From Ostreococcus lucimarinus (taxonomy: Eukaryota), in assembly GCA_000092065.1 (NCBI GenBank), contig CP000593.1: a stretch of 64,000 bases of DNA; one strand, written 5' to 3'. Shown here piece by piece: positions 34,279-45,486 of the stretch; position 1 is the first letter of the stretch; the number at the start of each line of letters is the position of its first letter. Position numbers and translations under genes: made by a program. The notes below the pieces were generated by a model. It was not told the DNA's origin, made no database searches, and worked only from the letters and a program-made list of their open reading frames with translations.

Positions 34279-36156
34279 CTAGAACTCAGCGCTACCCGGG
34301 TAACGGGGGAAAGGAATGGCGTCACGAATGTTCTCCACACCTGTGACGTACTGAACGAGGCGTTCAAAACCGAGGCCGAAACCGGCGTGCGGCTGCGAAC
34401 CGTATCGTCTCAAATCTAAGTACCACCAGTACGACTCCTTTTCCAAACCAACCTCTTCGATTCGGCGCTCCAAGACATCAAGGCGTTCTTCTCTTTGGCT
34501 ACCACCCATCAACTCACCAACGCGGGGCACCAAGACGTCCATTGCGGCGACGGTTTTGTTGTCGTCGTTGAGACGCATGTAGAACGCCTTGATATCTTTC
34601 GGATAATCGCGCACGATCACGGGGCGATCTTTGAAGACTTCTTCTGAGATGTACCGCTCGTGCTCGCTCTGAAGATCCGATCCCCATTCGATTGGGAACT
34701 CAAACTTCTTCTTCGCGTTCAACACGTGCTCGACGGCTTCGGTGTACGTGATGCGCGCAAACTCTTGCGACGCGACGTTTCGAAGTCGCTCTCTCAGGTT
34801 GTCTTTGGAGATGTTCTTCTCGAAGAATTCAAGATCTTCGTCGCAGTGCTCGAGGACGTGGTTCAGGCAATACTTCAAGTACGCTTCTGCGCAATCCATG
34901 TCGTCGTTCAAATCCGCGAACGCGAGTTCGGGCTCTACCATCCAAAACTCAGCCAGGTGGCGCGACGTGTTGCTATTCTCCGCGCGGAACGTCGGACCGA
35001 AGGTGTAGATGTCGTTGACCGCGCAAGCCATGATTTCACCGTTCAATTGCCCAGACACGGTCAAATAAGACGGTTTGCCGAAGAAGTCTTGAGAATAGTC
35101 GATGGAACCATCCTTATTCTTCGGCAAGTCGGACGACGGGCGATTGTTCTTCAGCGCCTCGACGCTCGCCTTGAGATCTAAAAGCTTCGCCACGGCCTCA
35201 TCAACTTGCTCTTTCGTCGCGTCTCCCGCTTTCTTCGCCTCCTTCAGGGCCTTCACCGCGTCACCCTGTGCCTTCACCATGGCTTCTTGCTCGTCCACGA
35301 CCGAGGCCGGCGTCGTCCACTCGCCGGCGCCGAAGCCGTTCAACAGCGTCGTCACTTGAAACTGTTCCCCAGCGCCTTCGCAATCCGACGCGGTGATGAT
35401 CGGCGTGTTGGCGTATAAAAACCCATGCTCTTGAAAGAACGTGTGCGTCGCGTACGCCAACTGATTGCGCACGCGAGCCACGGCGCCGATGGTGTTTGTG
35501 CGAGGTCGCAAGTGCGCGATGCTTCGAAGATATTCCAGCGTGTGTCGCTTCTTTTGCAGCGGATACGTCTCCGGATCCGCCGTTCCGATGACATCAATCT
35601 CCTCCACCGCCAATTCCGCCGCTTGCTTCCCTCCCGGACTCGCCACGAGTTTCCCCTTCACCCTGAGCGCCGCCCCCGTGGAGACGCCGCCCGCGTCGAG
35701 CGCGTCCCACGCCGCGCTTCCCTCGTTCACCACCGCTTGCATCCCCGAGATCGCGCTCCCATCGTTCAGGTCGATGAACGCCATTCCCTTCTGCGTCCGC
35801 ACCGATCGCGCCCACCCTCGCAGTTCCAACGCCTCGCCCACGCGCGACGCCCCCCCGTCGTTTCCCTTCACGCGCGCGATGCGCTCGGGTCGTCCGTACG
35901 TCGCCCGCGTCGCCACCGCGCGCGCGCTCCGCGCGTGTTTGATCGCTCCCGGCGTCGCTCTCGCCCGCATCGCGAGCGCACCGAGTCGCGCGCCGAGTCG
36001 CGCGCCGCGCACCGCGTCCACGGACGCGCGCGACATCATCGCGCCGTCGCCCGCGGGGACGTCCAGTGACGTCGCGCGCCCGTAATTCGTCGTCGGCAAA
36101 GGCGCGGTCGGTCGCCGAGACCATAAAATCGCGTTCGACGGCCACTTGCGAACCAT
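34279..36156 (-). CDS. asparaginyl-tRNA synthetase (class IIb), organellar type, with an inserted WHEP-like helix
   Basis: FRAENSNTSRHLAEFWMVEPELAF (motif 2, AsnRS-specific NSNTSRHL). Motif 3 is GGSQREERLDVLERR...GFGLGFERLV. An OB-fold anticodon-binding N-domain. The true start is probably the internal MMSRASV, at about 36039. Confidence 0.85.
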   Translation of the reverse strand: MVRKWPSNAILWSRRPTAPLPTTNYGRATSLDVPAGDGAMMSRASVDAVRGARLGARLGALAMRARATPGAIKHARSARAVATRATYGRPERIARVKGNDGGASRVGEALELRGWARSVRTQKGMAFIDLNDGSAISGMQAVVNEGSAAWDALDAGGVSTGAALRVKGKLVASPGGKQAAELAVEEIDVIGTADPETYPLQKKRHTLEYLRSIAHLRPRTNTIGAVARVRNQLAYATHTFFQEHGFLYANTPIITASDCEGAGEQFQVTTLLNGFGAGEWTTPASVVDEQEAMVKAQGDAVKALKEAKKAGDATKEQVDEAVAKLLDLKASVEALKNNRPSSDLPKNKDGSIDYSQDFFGKPSYLTVSGQLNGEIMACAVNDIYTFGPTFRAENSNTSRHLAEFWMVEPELAFADLNDDMDCAEAYLKYCLNHVLEHCDEDLEFFEKNISKDNLRERLRNVASQEFARITYTEAVEHVLNAKKKFEFPIEWGSDLQSEHERYISEEVFKDRPVIVRDYPKDIKAFYMRLNDDNKTVAAMDVLVPRVGELMGGSQREERLDVLERRIEEVGLEKESYWWYLDLRRYGSQPHAGFGLGFERLVQYVTGVENIRDAIPFPRYPGSAEF

Positions 36157-36177: not shown

Positions 36178-37398
36178 GTGTGGACGACTTTTTCGCTCGA
36201 CGCGCGTCGTCCGTCGGGCGTCGCGGTCGACGCGCGCGACGGGACGGGAGACGGCGTCGGGGGCGTGACGCGCATGCGGGACGAGATCGCGCTCGTCGAG
36301 CGCGCGCGCGTGGTCGTGGCGGACGACGGCGCGCGCGCGCGGCGAGACGCGGTCGCGCGGGCGACGACGCGACGGTTGATTTTGACGTTCGAGACGACGG
36401 CGACGGCGGCGGCGGCGGGGAGCGCGGCCGAGGGTGGGACGGTGATCGAGTACGACGACGTGGCGGCGTGCGAACGAGCGCAGGAGTCGCGGTCGACGCT
36501 GGGTGGGTTGTTCAGGAGGCGCGAGCGCGGGGTGGCGCTGGTTTTGACGAGCGGGAGACGGGTGACGATCGGCGCGCGAGGGGCGAGCGCGGAGGAGGTG
36601 TGCGGGAAAATCGAGAACGCGATCGTAAAGTATAAGAGACAGAAAGCGACGGCGGCGGTGGAGACGACGCGGGAGGATGCGAGGCGGCGGGCGAGCGGCG
36701 CGTCGGCGGCGACGGCGGGCGTCGGCGGCGCGGTGAATCGACAGCTCGAACGCGCGGAGGCGACGAATAAGACGATGGACGAGGCGTTTACCGATCTCAG
36801 AGCGCTCATGGCGAAGGCTGGAGAGATGGTGACGCTCGCCGAGCGGCTCGCGGAGTCGATGGACGGGAAAGGGGAAAGTTCAGAGCTTCAGCGTCTCGTG
36901 CTCAGTCTCGGGATTACGAGTCCGGTGACGCGCGCGAACGCGGGGGCAGAGTTTCATCGAGAATTAGGTAAACAATTAGCGGATTGGATAACGCCCGTGG
37001 TGCAAAAATCGAACGGCATCATTACCGTCACCGATGCGTTCTGTTTGTTCAATCGCGCGCGAGGCACGGAGTTAGTTTCCCCGCAAGACATGCTTCGCGC
37101 GAGCGAATCGTGGGAGTCGCTCGGGGTCGATTTGCACTTGCGTAAATTTGAAAGCGGAGTGATGGTGATTCATACCGTAGAACGCACAGACGAGGAAGCG
37201 TGCGCGCGATTGCTCGCGCGATTGCCGTCTTACGAGCATTCAATCGATTCGTACGAGGCGGCGCAAATATTAGCGACGACGCCCGAAATAGCGCTCGAGT
37301 ACCTCTACATGGCAGAAAGCCGAGGCGTTTTGTGTCGAGACGACGGACCTGCGCAGATGAGATTTTATGCAAACATGTTCGAGGCTAGATTGACGTAG
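36178..37398 (+). CDS. VPS36: ESCRT-II subunit VPS36 (EAP45)-like
   Basis: The N-terminus has a GLUE/PH-like segment (GGTVIEYDDV...VALVLTSGRRVTIGARGASAEEV). The C-terminal EAP30 winged-helix region is ITVTDAFCLFNRARGTELVSPQDMLRASESWESLGVDLHLRKFESGVMVI. The start may lie internally, at about 36274. Confidence 0.65.
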   Translation: MWTTFSLDARRPSGVAVDARDGTGDGVGGVTRMRDEIALVERARVVVADDGARARRDAVARATTRRLILTFETTATAAAAGSAAEGGTVIEYDDVAACERAQESRSTLGGLFRRRERGVALVLTSGRRVTIGARGASAEEVCGKIENAIVKYKRQKATAAVETTREDARRRASGASAATAGVGGAVNRQLERAEATNKTMDEAFTDLRALMAKAGEMVTLAERLAESMDGKGESSELQRLVLSLGITSPVTRANAGAEFHRELGKQLADWITPVVQKSNGIITVTDAFCLFNRARGTELVSPQDMLRASESWESLGVDLHLRKFESGVMVIHTVERTDEEACARLLARLPSYEHSIDSYEAAQILATTPEIALEYLYMAESRGVLCRDDGPAQMRFYANMFEARLT

Positions 37399-37469: not shown

Positions 37470-37898
37470 TTAAATGTCATTAATGTCGTCGAAATCGAAG
37501 AAGTCATCGTTCTCGTCGCGCTCTTCTTCGAACGTATCCGTATCGTTCACGCGGAAAGTGTCCGGGAGTTCCCCGTACGCCTTCAACGAGCGCGCCTCGT
37601 CGGCCAAGTACTTCAAGATGACGTCCGCCTTTTCGTCTTGAAAGTCCCGCAAGCCCAACAGGATGATGTCCCCGGTGTTCACCCAAACCTTTTTCCGCAT
37701 TTTACCGCGAATGTGACACAAACGCTTCACCCCATCGATGCACTGCGCCTCTAAGCGCCCGTTCCCGAGCATGCGCAACACTTGCGCGTACTCTTGACCG
37801 TCCTCTTTGAAGATGAGTTCGCGCTTCTCGTCTTCGCCGCCCCCTTTCCCGCGACGACGGTTCTTCCCTCCCTTTCCCTTGGAGTTACTCTTCGGCAT
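37470..37898 (-). CDS. EIF1A: eukaryotic translation initiation factor 1A (eIF1A)
   Basis: [64 protein letters not shown] is the eIF1A S1/OB core. The N-terminus is basic and the C-terminal tail acidic (DDINDI). Confidence 0.9.
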
Positions 37899-38337: not shown

Positions 38338-41300
38338 CTATAAATACTTCAGCCCGACGATCTTCGCTCGACGCTGGAGGGTGTGCTGGGTGACGACGGC
38401 GATGAGACTGGTGAAGGCGAGCGCGCGCACGGAGGGAATTTTTGAAAGAAACGGCGCCACGACGGCGAGCGGGGCGGTCAAGATGAGCGTCATCCCGTCC
38501 GTGCGAACGCTCGTGGCGAGGTAGTGCACCAAATTGATGCTATTCACCGAAGCGAGGAGCAGACTCAACGCGTTGAGCGTCATCCACGGCAACTTGGAGG
38601 CGGTCGCGGCGAGAACGTGAACTCGGTTCGGGCCGGCGAGGATGGCGGCGACGGCGTCCCAGCACATCTTACCCACGATCATCGCGAGCGGTGGAGCGTA
38701 TCGTTGGCTGTCTTCCAGTATAGGAAATATCACCGAGTCTTGGTGAAGAAGAAGCAGAATGGGCGCGAGGACGAAGACCGAAAACGCGGAGCCATCGGCC
38801 AACTCATCGCTCAGCACCACGCACGCGAGAAAGGACGTGAGCGTGGCGATGTTCCCGATGATTGGCATCCAAGCGATCGCCTTTGCCTTGAGTTCTCTGT
38901 GCTCGTTTCTGCTCGCGACACCGCGGAAATATTCCGGACGACTGCGACCAGTGGCGGGAAGGAACGGTGAAGTACCGCCTTGACGTCGTCGATGTTGCAC
39001 GCTCTCCAGGCTCGTTTTGATTCTCAACTTCAGAGCAAACGCGATTTGCAGCGAAGTCCCGGCGAAAACGCCGACGACACCGAATTTTCCTTCCATTCTC
39101 GCCTGATGGTCGTCCACAGTCTCGTCTGAGCCACCCATTTGTGTGACGTACGCCAAGCCGAGAACGGAGACGAACGATAAATACACGTAAGGCAACCAGC
39201 GCGAAGACTTCGGCGAAGGGCTGTACGTGAAAGACAAGAACACTCCCACCAGCGCACACGCGACAAATAGTAGTGCCGTCAGCGCCACTTGCTGGACGAA
39301 GAATTCCAGCGCCATATATAAACCAACGCTCCCACCGCACACGGCGCTTAAGGCGATTCGAATCGTTGACGTTGATTTTGTCTGTTGTCGTGGAGACGAG
39401 ACGGCGAATATCGCGGTGAGCGCGGCTAACATCAGCAACCAGCTCGGCCATCCATGATGCGCGTTCTCGCGCACGCCGTACATTCTCGCTTCGTCTTCTT
39501 CAGAGTCGGGAACGTGTTCGGCGTCATACCACATGCCCACCTCGCCCTTCCAAGGCATCGGCGGTCGGAAGGTGATGAGAAAGACGCCACAGAAACTCAA
39601 GAGCATCATCAATCGTTTGCTAAACATGTCATCACCGTAACTTTGTCGCGTTACCACGGACGCCAAGCTCGCCCCCGTGATCAGGAGGAGTCCACCGAAG
39701 AGCGTCGCGTCCGTCGGTCGGTGACCCGAGAGTTCAAATATAACGTCAAACATCGCAAACCGAGCGAATACCAAAGAGAACACCAAAGCGACGCAATAAC
39801 CAACGCTCGCGCCCGGAGATAATTGAGTCATTCGCCGTGACATCGCGTGCGGAGCGGTGATGGCGAGCACGACCACCAAGACGCTGAACATTTCCTTCAA
39901 ACCGCGAACAAAGAGCATGGAGAGCTTTGCGCCGCACACGCTCTGCATCACCCAGCCAAATTCGCGACTGATTCTCCCGCTGATGACGAGGCCTCGACTC
40001 GCCAAGAAGCCGCTGATGGAAGTGACGATGACCAAATATGGTGGATAAATCAAAGAATCGTCGTCATGCGTCGCTTGACTCAGGATTTGTTCAATCGTTG
40101 CGAGCGCCGAGACGTAACAGACGACGAGGACGCCAACCGTCGGCGCGCGCGCGCTTTTCGTATTCAACACCGCTGGCAAAGCCAAAGCCGCCACGGCGAG
40201 GAGTAATATGGCGACACACAATTGTTTGACGTCGAAAGCTCCCACGCGCACATCGAGTGACCAGAAATTCTTCGAAAGAAACCACGAAAAGCATCCGACG
40301 CAACTCGCGGCAAACACGCCGTAATCCTTCGGCTCTCGGTCCTCGTAATAATATTTGACGAATGACGATGATCCGGCGATGGGGATCGGAATCATCCACA
40401 GAGGTGCACCCAAAGCACAAATTGCGGTCGACGTAGACAGAGCCAACGTCGCCTTCACCGCACCCGTCGGGACGCCGTCGCCGACGGCGTTTGCGTAGCA
40501 CGCGGCGAAAACTGCCAGCGCGCTGTGGACGGAAACCGTCACCATGATGTAATTCAAAGGAGCCATGATTTCGATGTACTCGGCAAATTCACTAAATATT
40601 ATTCCACCTTCAACGCTCACCGCAAATCCAGTGAGTGCGAAGAGGAGCACGGCGGTTTCCATCCTTTTCGACGCCACGTCGACGCCGCGCGCGCGCCACC
40701 ACAACGACTTCTCCGTGCCGGCGGCTATTAAATACAACACCGGGACCGTCACCAACGCCCCACACGCGAAGACGTGATCGAGGGACTTGAACAGTGTGTC
40801 GAGGTTCGTCCATAAATACAACGCGACGGGTAAGCCGAGCGTGGCCACGGTGGCGTACTCGGCGTCGCTCTCGGTCAACGCCGAGCGCTTGTCCGACGGA
40901 GGCCCGTTCGTCTTCGTCACCGCCGCGCACGCGCTCGCGCACGGAAACAAAAACATCCGATGCGTGATCAACGACACGACCGAGCCGTAAAACGCCGCTC
41001 TCTCAGCTCCCGCGCTCGCGCTCGCGAACGCCCACGTCAGAATCGTCGTCGTCGTCGGCGGACACAGCGCGAAAATCAAACGCTCGCACGTCGCCGCCGC
41101 GCCCGCGTGCGACTCGTGTATCCACCGAAATTGCAGCGTGCACCACGAGCAAAATAAAAACAAATTCACCCCATTCACCGCGAGCAGCGCGCACGACGTC
41201 CCGACCGTCGCGCTCGTCCGCCAGCTCCCTCTCGTCAGCAGCGTCCCGAGCGCCGCCGTCGCCGTCGTCCAAATCGCGCCCAGCGCCCCCTCTCCGTTCC

Positions 41301-41508
41301 CCATCGCGTCCATCCCGCGCGCCGCGCTCGCCCCGATCGCGACCACGGTCACCATCGTCTCCCCCCCGCTGCCGAGCGTGACGCACAGCGCCGGCGCGAG
41401 CGCCGTCAGCGCGCGCGTCGAGTGTCCCCAACGACATCCCGCGCGTCGTCGCGTCGCCTCCTCGCGCGCCCCCGTCGCGCGCTCGCGCCCGCGTCCGCGC
41501 GCGCGCAT
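38338..41508 (-). CDS. large polytopic integral membrane protein (more than 20 predicted TM helices), family unassigned
   Basis: A continuous ORF of 1142 aa, mostly hydrophobic helical segments with short loops. No motif was recognised. The first 90-140 codons, to 41766, are an Arg-rich low-complexity extension that may not be coding. Confidence 0.5.
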   Translation of the reverse strand: MRARGRGRERATGAREEATRRRAGCRWGHSTRALTALAPALCVTLGSGGETMVTVVAIGASAARGMDAMGNGEGALGAIWTTATAALGTLLTRGSWRTSATVGTSCALLAVNGVNLFLFCSWCTLQFRWIHESHAGAAATCERLIFALCPPTTTTILTWAFASASAGAERAAFYGSVVSLITHRMFLFPCASACAAVTKTNGPPSDKRSALTESDAEYATVATLGLPVALYLWTNLDTLFKSLDHVFACGALVTVPVLYLIAAGTEKSLWWRARGVDVASKRMETAVLLFALTGFAVSVEGGIIFSEFAEYIEIMAPLNYIMVTVSVHSALAVFAACYANAVGDGVPTGAVKATLALSTSTAICALGAPLWMIPIPIAGSSSFVKYYYEDREPKDYGVFAASCVGCFSWFLSKNFWSLDVRVGAFDVKQLCVAILLLAVAALALPAVLNTKSARAPTVGVLVVCYVSALATIEQILSQATHDDDSLIYPPYLVIVTSISGFLASRGLVISGRISREFGWVMQSVCGAKLSMLFVRGLKEMFSVLVVVLAITAPHAMSRRMTQLSPGASVGYCVALVFSLVFARFAMFDVIFELSGHRPTDATLFGGLLLITGASLASVVTRQSYGDDMFSKRLMMLLSFCGVFLITFRPPMPWKGEVGMWYDAEHVPDSEEDEARMYGVRENAHHGWPSWLLMLAALTAIFAVSSPRQQTKSTSTIRIALSAVCGGSVGLYMALEFFVQQVALTALLFVACALVGVFLSFTYSPSPKSSRWLPYVYLSFVSVLGLAYVTQMGGSDETVDDHQARMEGKFGVVGVFAGTSLQIAFALKLRIKTSLESVQHRRRQGGTSPFLPATGRSRPEYFRGVASRNEHRELKAKAIAWMPIIGNIATLTSFLACVVLSDELADGSAFSVFVLAPILLLLHQDSVIFPILEDSQRYAPPLAMIVGKMCWDAVAAILAGPNRVHVLAATASKLPWMTLNALSLLLASVNSINLVHYLATSVRTDGMTLILTAPLAVVAPFLSKIPSVRALAFTSLIAVVTQHTLQRRAKIVGLKYL

Positions 41509-41792
41509 CCCGGACGCGCGCGCGCGTCGTTTCCTCGCCCGATTCGCGCGCGTCGTCACCGCATCGCCGCCGCGCGTCGCTCGATGGCGTCGTTCGTCGT
41601 CCGTCCGACCGCCCGCGCGCCCGCGCCGCCCGCGCTCGCGCCTTCCGTTCGACGAGACCGTCCGATTGAGACCGTCCTCGCGCGCGCGCCCTCGCGCGCG
41701 CGCCCTCCGCGCGCGCGCCGCGCCGCGCGGACCCCGAACGCGCGCGGACGCGACGCGTCGCGACACAACGCGACGACGCGAAGCACGACGCG

Positions 41793-42221
41793 ATGGCGAC
41801 GCCGCGCGCGATGACGATGACGCGCTCGCGCGCGCTCGTCGCGACGCGCGTGACGACGCGAAGAGGGACGGCGACGACGCGACGCGCGCGCGCGACGCGC
41901 CCGAAGATCGAAAGCCTCGGTGGGTTCGGGCCGAACATCGACGCGAAGGAGATTCAACGACGCATGGCGGAGAAGCAGCGAAAGATCGACGAGAACAAGC
42001 GCAAGGCGCGGGGCGCGAAGGAGGCGTCGACCGCGTTCGGGGCGCGAAGGGAGTTTCAGAGGACGATCTCGAGCGCGAGACCGTCGCGCGCGGGACGGAC
42101 GATGCCGGGGGGCGGCGTCGCCGCGGGGACGACGTCGAGCAAGACGAAGACGACGAGCGGGAAGGGCGGGAAGGGCGGGAAGGAGGAGGCGCCGAAGAAG
42201 AAACTGTTCGGATTGTTTTGA
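41793..42221 (+). CDS. hypothetical small basic protein (weak call)
   Basis: A non-repetitive Lys-rich ORF, ...KKKLFGLF, lying in a GC-rich spacer. It could instead be UTR. Confidence 0.2.
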   Translation: MATPRAMTMTRSRALVATRVTTRRGTATTRRARATRPKIESLGGFGPNIDAKEIQRRMAEKQRKIDENKRKARGAKEASTAFGARREFQRTISSARPSRAGRTMPGGGVAAGTTSSKTKTTSGKGGKGGKEEAPKKKLFGLF

Positions 42222-42742
42222 GCGACGACGACGGGCGCGAGTTTGTAACGAACGAGTCATTCTAATCGCTCGCGAGTCGACGCGACGACGCGAATGCGCG
42301 CGCGCGTCGACGCCACAATTCGACGACGTCTCGACGCGACGTCTCGACGCGATCGCGCGATCGCGATCGGTCGACGGCGAGAACGCGACGACGGCGCGAT
42401 CGCCGACGCGCGATCGGGCGTGAGTCGTCGCGACGGGCGCGCGGGGCGACGACGACCGACAACACGTGGCGCGATCGACGGTCGACGACGACGCGATGAG
42501 CGCGCAGGCGACGCGAGATCAGCTGCGGACGGCGTTCGCGGAGTTAGAGTGCGTCGCGCGATGCGATGGGATGGGATTCGAGCGACGCGAGCGACGCGAC
42601 GAGACGGAATACGCGCGAGGGACGGGACTGACGGAGCGAGCTCGCGACGCGTCGGCGCAGGGACGGATTCAAGCGTAAGGACGTTCTCGAGAGCCGCGAG
42701 ACGTCGGTGTCGAGCGGACACTTGAAAAAGTTGACCAATAAA

Positions 42743-43378
42743 ATGGCGGAGAGTAAAAAGCTGATCAAGGAGTTTGAGAGACGGGCGCTGAGCGAAGGGG
42801 CCATGGACGCGAACGCGTTGGCGGCGGCGAAGAAGGAATACGTGTCGAGGTTGAACAAGTTTGTGCAGATGAAGAAGGAGGCGCAGATTGCGATCGCGGA
42901 GAAACAAGAAGAGAGGAAGAGCGAGGTTGGTAGTCAGGGCGGGGAAGCGAGCACGTCGGGAGGGGTGACGACGTCGACGACGGCTACGTCGACGGCGTTT
43001 ACGTTGCCGGCGTTCCGGCCAAAGCCAAAGGGGGAGATTGTAGAGGATGAGCAGTTGCAACTCATGGAGGCTGGGGATTTGATTGATCACGGTAGGAACG
43101 TCATGGACCAAACGGATAAGAGCATCATGCGAAGCGAAGCGGTGGTTGAGGAGACGATTCAAATAGGGACGCAAACCGCCGAGGCGTTGCGCGGGCAGAC
43201 AAAACAACTGGAGAAAATCGTAGATGATCTCGATGAAATCCACTTTTCGTTGAAAAAGTCGTTTGGCGTGCTGAAGGACATCACCCGTGGGTTAGCGACG
43301 GATAAGTGCATCATGCTCTTGCTCTTTTTGGTCGTCGTCGGCGTAGTTGTGGTCATCATTACGAGGTTCGTGAAGTAG
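42743..43378 (+). CDS. Qb-SNARE (NPSN/novel plant SNARE-like), tail-anchored
   Basis: The C-terminal SNARE heptad TIQIGTQTAEALRGQTKQLEKIVDDLDEIHFSLKKSFGVLKDITRG carries a central Gln and is followed by the TM anchor IMLLLFLVVVGVVVVII. There is an N-terminal coiled coil. Confidence 0.7.
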   Translation: MAESKKLIKEFERRALSEGAMDANALAAAKKEYVSRLNKFVQMKKEAQIAIAEKQEERKSEVGSQGGEASTSGGVTTSTTATSTAFTLPAFRPKPKGEIVEDEQLQLMEAGDLIDHGRNVMDQTDKSIMRSEAVVEETIQIGTQTAEALRGQTKQLEKIVDDLDEIHFSLKKSFGVLKDITRGLATDKCIMLLLFLVVVGVVVVIITRFVK

Positions 43379-43608: not shown

Positions 43609-45486
43609 TTAGTTTTCGCGCATCGAATCAGGTTCAAAGTCGGCATCATCGTCGTCATCCTCTTCTGGCGCATCCGCAGCATCGACGAGCGCTCGAGACC
43701 ATCTCGCGAGATTTTCGCCGCGGTGGTCGTCGTCGCTATCGGTGCTCGCTTCGTCTTCATCGTCTTCATCCGTATCTTCTTCTTCCTCGTCATCTTCTTC
43801 GTCAAATCCCCAAGCGTCGTGTTCATCGCGCATGGGAGGGGTGCCGAGATGCACTCCACCATCACCAGCTTCGAAGACGCGCACGTGATTGTCTATACCG
43901 CAGCACACGATGGTCGGCAAGTGCGGGTGCGGCAAAACGGTGTTCACCACCTGACTGTCTGCTTGCATTTTGCACACGAGCTCGCACGTATCTTTGTGCC
44001 AGACGTATACGTTGCCATCGTCACCACCCGTCGTGACGTACTCATCGTCGCACATAAAAGCGACACCCTTTAAGAAGGTTTTCACATTTCTGCGTCCGAC
44101 GTACCTCTTCGCCGCCTGATGCGTGATCGGCATTTCCCACGGCACGGAGAACGACTTAAAAATACGTTCCTCAGAATTGATATTCGCCGCCGCTCGGCGA
44201 GTGTCCAACAGGTACACGTCGTCGCCTTTGCAGTTAATCGCGAGTTCGCCCTTGGACGAGTAAGCCAGGCCAGATATACCCTCAAAGCCCGGGCTTCGCA
44301 CGCCTCGACCGAGCTCGAGCGGACTGAGCATCATGACGCACGGAATGTCGTGATTCATCGAAGGCCGAGGCGATCTCAGAAACATCGGTTGACCCGTGGG
44401 CGACGTGCTCGGACTCGGTGCCGCTGGACATTCGCGCGCCGCTTCTCGCCGGTTACTCTTGACGTGTCTGAGATCAAACACGCGCACGTGAGGATCGTCC
44501 GAGCACGCGGCGAACGTCGTAGGCGCCGTCGGGTCGAACACGATTTCCGACGTCGGCCCGCACGCGCTCAAATCGACGACGATTTCGTGTGAGTTTCCTT
44601 CGAAACCACCGTGACTTTGCCTCAAGTCGAACAAACGAACGCGACCGTCTTGATGGCACGACAAAAACGTATTCGGTTCGTTCGGCACGAACGTCATGCC
44701 GAACCCCATCCCCGCGCCTCGACCGTGCCAGAGCGAGCGACTGCACTCGGAATTCGGTTGATTCGCCCCGCGCAGGCGATAACCGTAATGCGCGGGCGCG
44801 GGCCCTCGAAACCCACGCTCTAAATCCACCAACCGCACGTCTCCATCCGCGGACGTCGTGACGCAGTACGCGCTGTTCGATTGCGGCACGAATTCGCTCG
44901 CGAAGACGTTGTGCGTGTGCCCCGTGAACGCCGACCCCTTCAGCGGCATCTTCGCCCCGCACCCCCACACGCACACCGTCATATCATCGCTCCCAGAGAT
45001 CAACAGCGACGCATCGTCGTTCCAACTCACGCAATTCACGCACCCACCGTGCTTCTCCAGCGTCTCCCTCAGCCTCAATTCCTCCACGAAGCGCTTATTC
45101 GAGCACCGCAGCGCCGTCGCCCCCGTCTTCGCGCTCGCCGCGCCTCCCCGTCGCTCCCCGATCTGCCGCTCTCTGCACCACTGCCGTCGCTGCGCGTCGG
45201 CGAATATATTTCGACTCCGTCGCGCGAATCCTCCCGCGCCGTCCTCGTCCATCCGCGTCGTTCGCGTCGTCGTCGCCGCCCCGTCGTCGCGCGCCGCCTC
45301 CGCGCCTCGTCCCGCGCCGTCTTCGTCCTCGTCCCGCGCCGTCTTCGTCCGCGCTCTGGCGCGCGCGCTTCTCGCGCCGTCGTCCATCGACGTTCGCCTC
45401 GTCGCCTCGTCCCGTCGTCCCGTCGTCCCGTCGTCGCGCGTCGTCGCGCGTCCGTCCGTCCGTCCGTCCGTCCGTCCGTCAACCAC
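43609..45486 (-). CDS. DCAF8/WDR42-like WD40 repeat protein (DDB1-CUL4 associated factor-like)
   Basis: VEELRLRETLEKHGGCVNCVSWNDDASLLISGSDDMTVCVWG is the first of several WD repeats. The C-terminal tail is acidic (EEDDEEEEDTDEDDEDE). The N-terminus reads through the (TCCG)n repeat (DGRTDGRTDGR), so the true start is probably downstream of 45486. Confidence 0.6.
   Translation of the reverse strand: MVDGRTDGRTDGRATTRDDGTTGRRDEATRRTSMDDGARSARARARTKTARDEDEDGAGRGAEAARDDGAATTTRTTRMDEDGAGGFARRSRNIFADAQRRQWCRERQIGERRGGAASAKTGATALRCSNKRFVEELRLRETLEKHGGCVNCVSWNDDASLLISGSDDMTVCVWGCGAKMPLKGSAFTGHTHNVFASEFVPQSNSAYCVTTSADGDVRLVDLERGFRGPAPAHYGYRLRGANQPNSECSRSLWHGRGAGMGFGMTFVPNEPNTFLSCHQDGRVRLFDLRQSHGGFEGNSHEIVVDLSACGPTSEIVFDPTAPTTFAACSDDPHVRVFDLRHVKSNRREAARECPAAPSPSTSPTGQPMFLRSPRPSMNHDIPCVMMLSPLELGRGVRSPGFEGISGLAYSSKGELAINCKGDDVYLLDTRRAAANINSEERIFKSFSVPWEMPITHQAAKRYVGRRNVKTFLKGVAFMCDDEYVTTGGDDGNVYVWHKDTCELVCKMQADSQVVNTVLPHPHLPTIVCCGIDNHVRVFEAGDGGVHLGTPPMRDEHDAWGFDEEDDEEEEDTDEDDEDEASTDSDDDHRGENLARWSRALVDAADAPEEDDDDDADFEPDSMREN

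What the first reader, a model, noticed from the sequence alone, without database searches (positions are those of the whole stretch)
38338..41766. 1142-aa membrane protein with more than 20 TM helices and no recognisable family
This is the longest uncharacterised ORF in the window. It is almost entirely hydrophobic helices, and no transporter, channel or enzyme motif was recognised by eye. Its size and topology are reminiscent of plant NEF1-type plastid membrane proteins or of large lipid or glycan flippases, but that is speculation.
Basis: inference. Interest (0 to 1): 0.5.

Follow-up and report, generated by a model that had tools for sequence, protein, structure and literature searches.

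The report
Ostreococcus orthologue of membrane protein NEF1
The long hydrophobic ORF is the Ostreococcus lucimarinus copy of NEF1 ("No Exine Formation 1"), a roughly 31-helix membrane protein family that is named but whose mechanism is unknown, and which also occurs in plastid-free amoebae; it is an ordinary orthologue of an enigmatic family.

The parts
38338..41508 (-). Proposed coding sequence of the NEF1 orthologue. It is a single exon of 1056 aa, running from the first ATG (Met87 of the maximal ORF) to the stop at 38338-38340.
   Evidence: This is the first in-frame ATG. The alignment to Vanilla NEF1 is end to end, query residues 20-1056 against subject 58-1111. Members of 1056 aa are present in the 90% identity cluster. 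The AlphaFold model has mean pLDDT 88.6.
41509..41766 (-). In-frame upstream extension of 86 codons starting at a GTG. It is probably 5' UTR or promoter and is not translated.
   Evidence: GC is 0.80 with no codon-position periodicity, whereas the CDS has GC 0.59 and GC3 0.73. The composition is Arg/Ala/Gly-rich. There is no counterpart in the homologues. A divergent ORF starts at 41793.
41305..41421 (-). The first two family-conserved helices (residues 30-68 in Met87 numbering). They carry conserved R32, P39, G49, G59 and D67. The public 988-aa gene model, which starts at 41304, omits them.
   Evidence: pLDDT is 86-95 over this stretch. The public model XP_001421101.1 equals ORF residues 155-1142.
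39451..39567 (-). Conserved acidic extramembrane loop (residues 648-686: RPPMPWKGEVGMWYDAEHVPDSEEDEARMYG...). It holds near-invariant P649 and conserved D662, H665, P667, D672 and G678.
38869..39024 (-). Conserved basic extramembrane segment (residues 829-880: ...SPFLPATGRSRPEYFR...NEHRELK...). It has 12 Lys/Arg and contains an amphipathic helix.
38737..38769 (-). Family signature motif LAPILLLLHQD (residues 914-924). This is the most conserved stretch and is shared with the amoebozoan and ichthyosporean members.
   Evidence: L919 and L921 are invariant in the 28-sequence alignment. P916 and L918-L921 are at least 87% conserved and D924 is 80% conserved in the 67-sequence alignment. The motif is aligned in Polysphondylium and Chromosphaera and is invariant in alignment A6.

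Best explanation
This is an intron-less nuclear gene of Ostreococcus lucimarinus (CDS 38338..41508, minus strand, 1056 aa). It encodes the orthologue of NEF1 (No Exine Formation 1, Arabidopsis At5g13390). The product is an integral membrane protein built almost wholly of about 31 hydrophobic helices joined by very short loops. It has only two sizeable extramembrane segments, one acidic and one basic, and no soluble domain. The family is ancient, inherited vertically, and present in green algae, land plants, a stramenopile, Amoebozoa and an ichthyosporean. 

Shown: the identity, the architecture, the distribution, and the absence of any relative among known families or solved folds. 

Inferred: the protein acts as a constitutive, membrane-embedded transporter or lipid-handling protein (a lipid or lipid-precursor translocator or scramblase) in an internal membrane, either the ER/endomembrane system or the plastid envelope. 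It would use the conserved polar residues at helix ends and within helices (R32, D67, E142, E300, E473, K528, R583, N886, D924, R936) together with the conserved acidic His-containing loop. The plant nef1 phenotype (less lipid in tapetal plastids, defective primexine) would then be a downstream effect of a general membrane-lipid function.
For: Identity and orthology:
- The window ORF is 100% identical over 988 aa to XP_001421101.1 of O. lucimarinus.
- The exhaustive HMMER profile search found 642 clusters at E<=1e-3 and 107 at E<=1e-30, many of them full length.
- The Chara hit (1e-133) and the Vanilla hit (1e-127) are named 'No exine formation 1' by UniRef, and a Pycnococcus member is named 'NEF1-like protein'.
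- BLASTP against Vanilla NEF1 gives 27% identity over 1074 columns, collinear, E 3e-85.
- A profile of non-plant members retrieves a lycophyte (1e-153) and Chlorokybus in return.
- A neighbour-joining tree of 14 named members follows the species tree.

Architecture:
- The AlphaFold2 model from a 67-sequence alignment has mean pLDDT 88.6 and pTM 0.80, is all-helical, and has about 31 hydrophobic helices.

Distribution:
- Full-length orthologues occur in Dictyostelium discoideum and four other dictyostelids.
- They also occur in Polysphondylium, Luapelamoeba, Chromosphaera and Phaeothamnion.

Function:
- The conserved charged and polar residues are listed.
- The reviews read here state that nef1 mutants have reduced lipid accumulation in tapetal plastids, reduced sterol esters and defective primexine (PMC12346373; PMC6136457; PMC3220415).
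- The Micrasterias orthologue is expressed stably enough to serve as a qPCR reference gene (PMC3191482), which fits a housekeeping role.
Against: - Nothing here tests the biochemical activity.
- Most conserved polar residues sit at helix ends rather than deep in the membrane, which fits a structural role equally well.
- The link to lipids rests on one Arabidopsis mutant phenotype, taken from reviews. The primary paper could not be read here.
- The membrane in which the protein resides is unknown.
Confidence: 0.9

Rival explanations
1. This is a plastid-envelope-specific lipid or fatty-acid transporter, as reviews label NEF1. The Ostreococcus protein would sit in the chloroplast envelope and move lipids or precursors between envelope and stroma or cytosol.
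For: Reviews describe NEF1 as a plastid integral membrane protein or transporter that affects plastid lipid accumulation. The Ostreococcus N-terminus before the first conserved helix is short, basic and disordered (residues 1-25, pLDDT below 50). That is compatible with a short transit peptide.
Against: Full-length orthologues with the same signature residues exist in organisms without plastids: five dictyostelids, Polysphondylium, Luapelamoeba and Chromosphaera. Plant and algal members have no consistently longer N-terminal extension than amoebozoan ones. The extension is about 26 aa here, 57 in Vanilla and 38 in Polysphondylium. From my own recollection of the primary paper, which is not held here, the plastid location was predicted rather than shown.
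Confidence: 0.2
2. This is a membrane-embedded enzyme, for example a glycosyl-, acyl- or other transferase acting on a lipid-linked substrate. The conserved acidic His-containing loop (residues 648-686) and conserved D67, E142 and E473 would form the active site.
For: The loop WYDAEHVPDSEEDD is highly conserved, with H665, D662 and D672. Acidic residues at helix ends are near-invariant. Many polytopic enzymes likewise lack soluble domains.
Confidence: 0.15
3. This is a structural or mechanical membrane protein with no transport activity. A large helical slab would shape, stabilise or sense membranes, in the manner of Piezo or reticulon, or scaffold other proteins.
For: The membrane footprint is very large, about 31 helices, with minimal loops. 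Most conserved polar residues lie at the membrane interfaces. From my recollection of the Arabidopsis primary paper, its authors discussed plastid envelope integrity.
Confidence: 0.1
4. This is an artefact: a chance long ORF in GC-rich DNA, or a fusion of two genes or exons.
For: GC-rich genomes produce long spurious ORFs, and many overlap this locus on other frames. The first 86 codons do look non-coding.
Against: Orthologues at 54-67% identity and distant ones at 17-28% identity align collinearly over the full length, all with similar lengths of 1000-1170 aa. The CDS shows codon-position GC periodicity. The AlphaFold model is a single confident fold.
Confidence: 0.01

Closest known systems
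NEF1 (No Exine Formation 1; Arabidopsis At5g13390) and its land-plant and charophyte orthologues (Vanilla A0A835Q7D0, Chara A0A388LQJ7)
   Same: The alignment is collinear end to end (27% identity, E 3e-85 to Vanilla; profile E 1e-127 and 1e-133). Lengths are alike (1056 aa against 1103-1111 aa). The architecture is the same, all-helical and polytopic, and the signature residues and the LAPILLLL motif are shared.
   Different: Ostreococcus is a wall-less unicell with no pollen, tapetum or sporopollenin, so the name-giving phenotype cannot apply. Identity is only about 25%. The N-terminal extension before the conserved core is shorter, about 26 aa against about 57 aa.
Prasinophyte 'NEF1-like protein' (Pycnococcus provasolii XRA98443.1 / GHP02956.1) and Ostreococcus tauri XP_022840211.1 ('unnamed product')
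   Same: These belong to the same family within Chlorophyta and group with the query in the tree. O. tauri is 63% identical over the full length.
   Different: The O. lucimarinus entry is annotated only as 'predicted protein'. Its public model of 988 aa lacks the first two conserved helices.
Dictyostelid 'hypothetical' or 'Transmembrane protein' orthologues (D. discoideum, D. firmibasis, D. citrinum, D. dimigraforme, Tieghemostelium lacteum, Polysphondylium violaceum KAF2075558.1)
   Same: D. discoideum matches the family HMM over its full length (HMM positions 7-1047 against residues 8-1171, E 1e-174), and it was not in the training alignment. The invariant residues are the same.
   Different: Identity is about 19%, and loops carry longer insertions. 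The organisms have no plastid. None has been characterised.
Large polytopic transporters, flippases, GT-C enzymes and Piezo-type proteins
   Same: Only the general character is shared: many transmembrane helices, few soluble parts, and a genetic link to lipid handling.
   Different: No sequence-family or fold match to any of them was found.

Membership tests
NEF1 (No Exine Formation 1) family | Significant, collinear, full-length sequence similarity to proteins named NEF1 | tested here: met
   Profile E-values are 1e-133 (Chara) and 1e-127 (Vanilla), covering profile positions 22/30-1062 of 1062. BLASTP gives query 20-1056 against subject 58-1111, E 3e-85.
NEF1 (No Exine Formation 1) family | A protein of about 1000-1150 aa made almost entirely of transmembrane helices, with no soluble domains | tested here: met
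   The protein is 1056 aa with about 31 hydrophobic helices in a model of pLDDT 88.6. Family members are 1000-1170 aa.
NEF1 (No Exine Formation 1) family | Family signature residues and motifs (E142, P227, E473, K528, P649, G729, N886, LAPILLLL, RYxP) | tested here: met
   All are present in the query. They are invariant in the 28-sequence alignment and at least 90% conserved in the 67-sequence alignment.
NEF1 (No Exine Formation 1) family | Orthology: reciprocal retrieval and a gene tree that follows the species tree | tested here: met
   The non-plant profile retrieves plant and charophyte members. The neighbour-joining tree resolves Chlorophyta, Streptophyta, and Amoebozoa plus Ichthyosporea. 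Copy number per genome was not tested across the family.
NEF1 (No Exine Formation 1) family | Location in a plastid membrane, as the literature describes NEF1 | not testable with these tools
   Orthologues in plastid-free lineages show this cannot define the family as a whole. The location of the Ostreococcus protein is unknown.
NEF1 (No Exine Formation 1) family | Requirement for normal lipid accumulation or membrane integrity (the mutant phenotype) | not testable with these tools
   This is known only from Arabidopsis nef1 as cited in reviews.
Known transporter, flippase or GT-C families and folds | A match to a curated family model or to a solved structure of that fold | tested here: not met

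The most novel reading that the evidence does not exclude
NEF1 is not a plant or plastid invention. It is an ancient eukaryotic membrane protein of about 31 helices, present in Archaeplastida, a stramenopile, Amoebozoa and an ichthyosporean. Its fold has no counterpart among solved structures. Its conserved function lies in a non-plastid membrane, and it may define a new class of lipid transporter or scramblase. The Arabidopsis plastid and exine phenotype would then be secondary.
Probability: 0.4. Interest if true: 0.6.

Novelty: new member of a known kind. Interest (0 to 1): 0.3.

Why it matters
For this window the result is mundane. An unannotated 'predicted protein' receives a family name and a corrected start codon.

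The wider point concerns the family. NEF1 is cited throughout the pollen literature as a 'plastid membrane protein or transporter', yet it has no Pfam model and no structural relative in the PDB. The evidence here shows full-length orthologues in plastid-free amoebae and in an ichthyosporean. That makes tractable organisms such as Dictyostelium and Ostreococcus available for working out what this very large membrane protein does. It also cautions against using NEF1 homologues as markers of sporopollenin or exine pathways in algae.

Tried and rejected
- Pfam, NCBIfam and PDB sequence searches with the single protein gave no hits.
- The word-indexed homology search was weak for this hydrophobic protein. 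It returned only relatives at 54% identity or above and little more with a 28-sequence alignment. The exhaustive HMMER search was what opened up the family.
- The first AlphaFold run, on a 6-sequence alignment, was unusable (pLDDT 36). A 122-sequence alignment was too large to submit.
- The afdb50 Foldseek library was not available, so no comparison with AlphaFold-database models was possible.
- The internal-duplication test with hhalign on five segments found no convincing repeat. The best result was 20% probability, for about residues 480-632 against 680-836.
- Topology from the positive-inside rule was inconclusive with about 31 helices and no access to coordinates.
- The scan of bacterial and archaeal genomes could not run, because the alignment lacked a sufficiently conserved short stretch. 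Absence from prokaryotes is therefore not shown.
- Domain-fusion hints came from single gene models only. P0103 carries NEF1 plus Ank, CBM20 and GDPD domains. P0262 has N-terminal EF-hands. Closterium P0028 has an RWP-RK domain. The P0103 contig could not be retrieved. These were treated as leads, not evidence.
- The literature searches found nothing on NEF1 outside pollen biology. The primary NEF1 paper is not held.
- The neighbouring genes (AsnRS, Vps36, eIF1A, Sec20-type SNARE, WD40) give no functional clue.
Full report
**1. The observation**

The ORF lister returns 38338..41766 on the minus strand, 1142 aa, starting at a GTG. The window is GC-rich and densely packed with eukaryotic housekeeping genes.

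From ORF residue 155 onward, the product is 100% identical over 988 aa to XP_001421101.1, 'predicted protein [Ostreococcus lucimarinus CCE9901]'. The window is therefore nuclear DNA of that picoalga or a near-identical strain, and translation must start at an ATG.

Several lines of evidence place the start at ORF residue 87:
- The first in-frame ATG is ORF residue 87, at window 41508.
- The 86 codons upstream are 80% GC with no codon-position periodicity (GC1/2/3 = 0.80/0.79/0.81). The rest is 59% GC with GC3 0.73 and GC2 0.50.
- Those upstream codons are Arg/Ala/Gly-rich and have no counterpart in the homologues.
- The family-conserved sequence (RWGHxxRA..L.PA...) begins about 25 residues after Met87.
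- Members of exactly 1056 aa exist in the database cluster.

I therefore take the CDS to be 38338..41508, giving 1056 aa. All residue numbers below use that frame.

The public 988-aa model starts 68 residues further in. It would remove two conserved helices (residues 30-68) that are modelled with pLDDT 86-95. It is probably truncated.

The hydrophobic character is confirmed. Hydropathy finds 25-30 hydrophobic segments, and the structure model shows about 31 hydrophobic helices.

**2. What it is**

Pfam, NCBIfam and PDB sequences give nothing for the protein. The word-indexed database search found only unnamed relatives at 54-100% identity.

A profile built from those relatives (alignment A2) was run exhaustively against 1.84 billion representative proteins. 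It found 642 clusters at E<=1e-3, 263 at E<=1e-10 and 107 at E<=1e-30. Many are 1000-1150 aa and match end to end.

Cluster look-ups gave names to the hits:
- Chara braunii GBG84594.1 (E 1e-133) and Vanilla planifolia KAG0465526.1 (E 1e-127) are both called 'No exine formation 1' by UniRef.
- Pycnococcus provasolii XRA98443.1 is called 'NEF1-like protein'.
- Other members come from Chlorokybus, Closterium and Ostreococcus tauri.

BLASTP of the ORF against the Vanilla protein gives a single collinear alignment. It spans query 20-1056 and subject 58-1111, with 27% identity and E 3e-85.

The ORF is thus the O. lucimarinus orthologue of NEF1. It is one gene, not a fusion.

**3. Family properties**

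None of 28 diverse members hits any Pfam or NCBIfam model. A 67-sequence family profile finds nothing credible among PDB sequences.

With that alignment AlphaFold2 gives a confident model: mean pLDDT 88.6 and pTM 0.80. Only residues 1-23 and 853-856 fall below 50. An earlier run on six sequences had failed (pLDDT 36).

The model is all-helical, with about 31 hydrophobic helices and loops mostly of 3-13 residues. Only two extramembrane segments are sizeable:
- An acidic, conserved one at residues 648-686 (WYDAEHVPDSEEDEARMYG).
- A basic, conserved one at residues 829-880 (SPFLPATGRSRPEYFR...).

The conserved polar residues are R32, D67, E142, E300, E473, K528, R583, H665, N886, D924, R936 and Y937. 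The strongest motif is LAPILLLL(H)QD at residues 914-924.

No convincing internal sequence repeat was found.

The fold searches found no relative:
- Foldseek against 350,542 PDB chains gave a best E-value of 0.35 with TM-score about 0.1, all alpha-solenoids.
- Foldseek against viral models gave nothing.
- The AlphaFold-database library was not available.

As far as these tools can see, the fold has no solved relative.

**4. Distribution**

The family is not confined to plastid-bearing organisms. Named members include:
- Polysphondylium violaceum.
- Luapelamoeba hula, the ichthyosporean Chromosphaera perkinsii and the stramenopile Phaeothamnion.
- Dictyostelium discoideum, D. firmibasis, D. citrinum, D. 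dimigraforme and Tieghemostelium lacteum, at 97-99% coverage of the Polysphondylium protein.

The family HMM was trained without D. discoideum, Phaeothamnion and Chromosphaera. It still matches D. discoideum over HMM positions 7-1047 (E 1e-174) and Phaeothamnion over 14-1047 (E 2e-103). It matches Chromosphaera in two pieces (E 8e-101).

The non-plant members keep the same invariant residues. Their profile retrieves a lycophyte (1e-153) and Chlorokybus in return. A neighbour-joining tree of 14 named members mirrors the species tree, which indicates vertical descent. I could not test whether animals, fungi or prokaryotes have members (one search failed).

**5. How it most likely works**

The reviews read here say the following about NEF1:
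- It is needed for lipid accumulation in tapetal plastids, for normal sterol-ester levels and for primexine formation (PMC12346373; PMC6136457; PMC3220415).

The primary paper (Ariizumi et al. 2004) is not held here. From my own memory, the plastid location was a prediction. The Micrasterias orthologue is expressed stably enough to serve as a qPCR reference gene (PMC3191482).

I combine this with the architecture, the conserved charged residues and the occurrence in amoebae. The best-supported reading is a constitutive, membrane-embedded transporter or lipid-handling protein of an internal membrane, with the pollen phenotype as a downstream effect. This step is inference, and I put the transporter or lipid-handling mechanism at roughly 0.3-0.4. 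Identity as a NEF1 orthologue is about 0.95.

The rivals are:
- A plastid-specific transporter, weakened by the plastid-free orthologues.
- A polytopic enzyme that uses the acidic His loop, for which there is no fold support.
- A structural or mechanical membrane protein.
- An artefact or gene fusion, which is refuted.

Fused gene models offer weak leads only. P0103 has a complete NEF1 domain followed by ankyrin repeats, CBM20, a GDE1-type C2 domain and a glycerophosphodiester phosphodiesterase. P0262 has N-terminal EF-hands. Each is a single instance, and they may be merged gene predictions.

**6. Comparison with the known, and novelty**

Every membership feature of the NEF1 family that could be tested is met: full-length similarity, size and architecture, signature residues, and orthology. 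Localisation and phenotype cannot be tested here.

The protein is not a member of any characterised transporter, flippase or GT-C family. All such tests were negative.

The finding is a new, previously unlabelled member of a known, named but mechanistically uncharacterised family.

The side results of some interest are the corrected start codon, the lack of any solved fold relative, and the pan-eukaryotic distribution that undercuts the 'plastid protein' label.

**7. Verdict**

This is a real gene, correctly spotted, and an ordinary orthologue. Interest for this locus is modest (0.3). The family itself remains an open problem worth experimental work.

Noticed in passing
window 41302-41304 (Met155) versus 41506-41508 (Met87): The public O. 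lucimarinus gene model XP_001421101.1 (988 aa) starts at the fourth in-frame ATG. It omits two family-conserved, confidently modelled helices, so its start is probably mis-annotated by 68 codons.
   Followed up: yes
window 38338-41304 (protein P0185): The identical 988-aa protein carries two separate accession pairs in O. lucimarinus: XP_001421101.1/ABO99394.1 and XP_001422853.1/ABP01212.1. This suggests the locus is annotated twice or lies in a duplicated segment.
   Followed up: no
window 41793-42221 (+): A 142-aa ORF lies divergent from the NEF1 gene, 285 bp from its proposed ATG. It has a basic, Thr/Arg-rich N-terminus and a Lys/Gly-rich C-terminus, and no Pfam match. It may be a small real gene sharing a bidirectional promoter.
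   Followed up: partly
protein P0103 (2282 aa; no locus retrievable): One family member has a complete NEF1 domain (residues 2-976) followed by ankyrin repeats, a CBM20 starch-binding domain, a GDE1-like C2 domain and a GDPD glycerophosphodiester phosphodiesterase. This is either a merged gene model or a hint of a link to glycerophospholipid turnover.
   Followed up: partly
proteins P0262 and P0028: Two other NEF1-family gene models carry N-terminal extras: EF-hand pairs in P0262 and an RWP-RK domain in Closterium P0028. The latter is very likely a merged prediction.
   Followed up: partly
window 34279-36156 (-): This is a class II asparaginyl-type tRNA synthetase. It has an N-terminal extension of about 100 aa that looks like an organellar presequence, and an inserted WHEP-TRS domain.
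   Followed up: partly
window 36178-37398 (+), 37470-37898 (-), 42707-43378 (+), 43609-45486 (-): The neighbours are ordinary eukaryotic genes: Vps36/EAP30 (ESCRT-II), eIF1A, a Sec20/V-SNARE-type SNARE and a WD40 protein. The same gene order is seen on marine metagenome contigs that carry the identical NEF1 gene.
   Followed up: yes
locus L001 3001-6606 and proteins P0003-P0006: Prokaryote-style gene callers on metagenome contigs give this gene a 1201-aa product, longer even than the 1142-aa ORF. This illustrates how GC-rich upstream sequence inflates ORF length for this locus.
   Followed up: no
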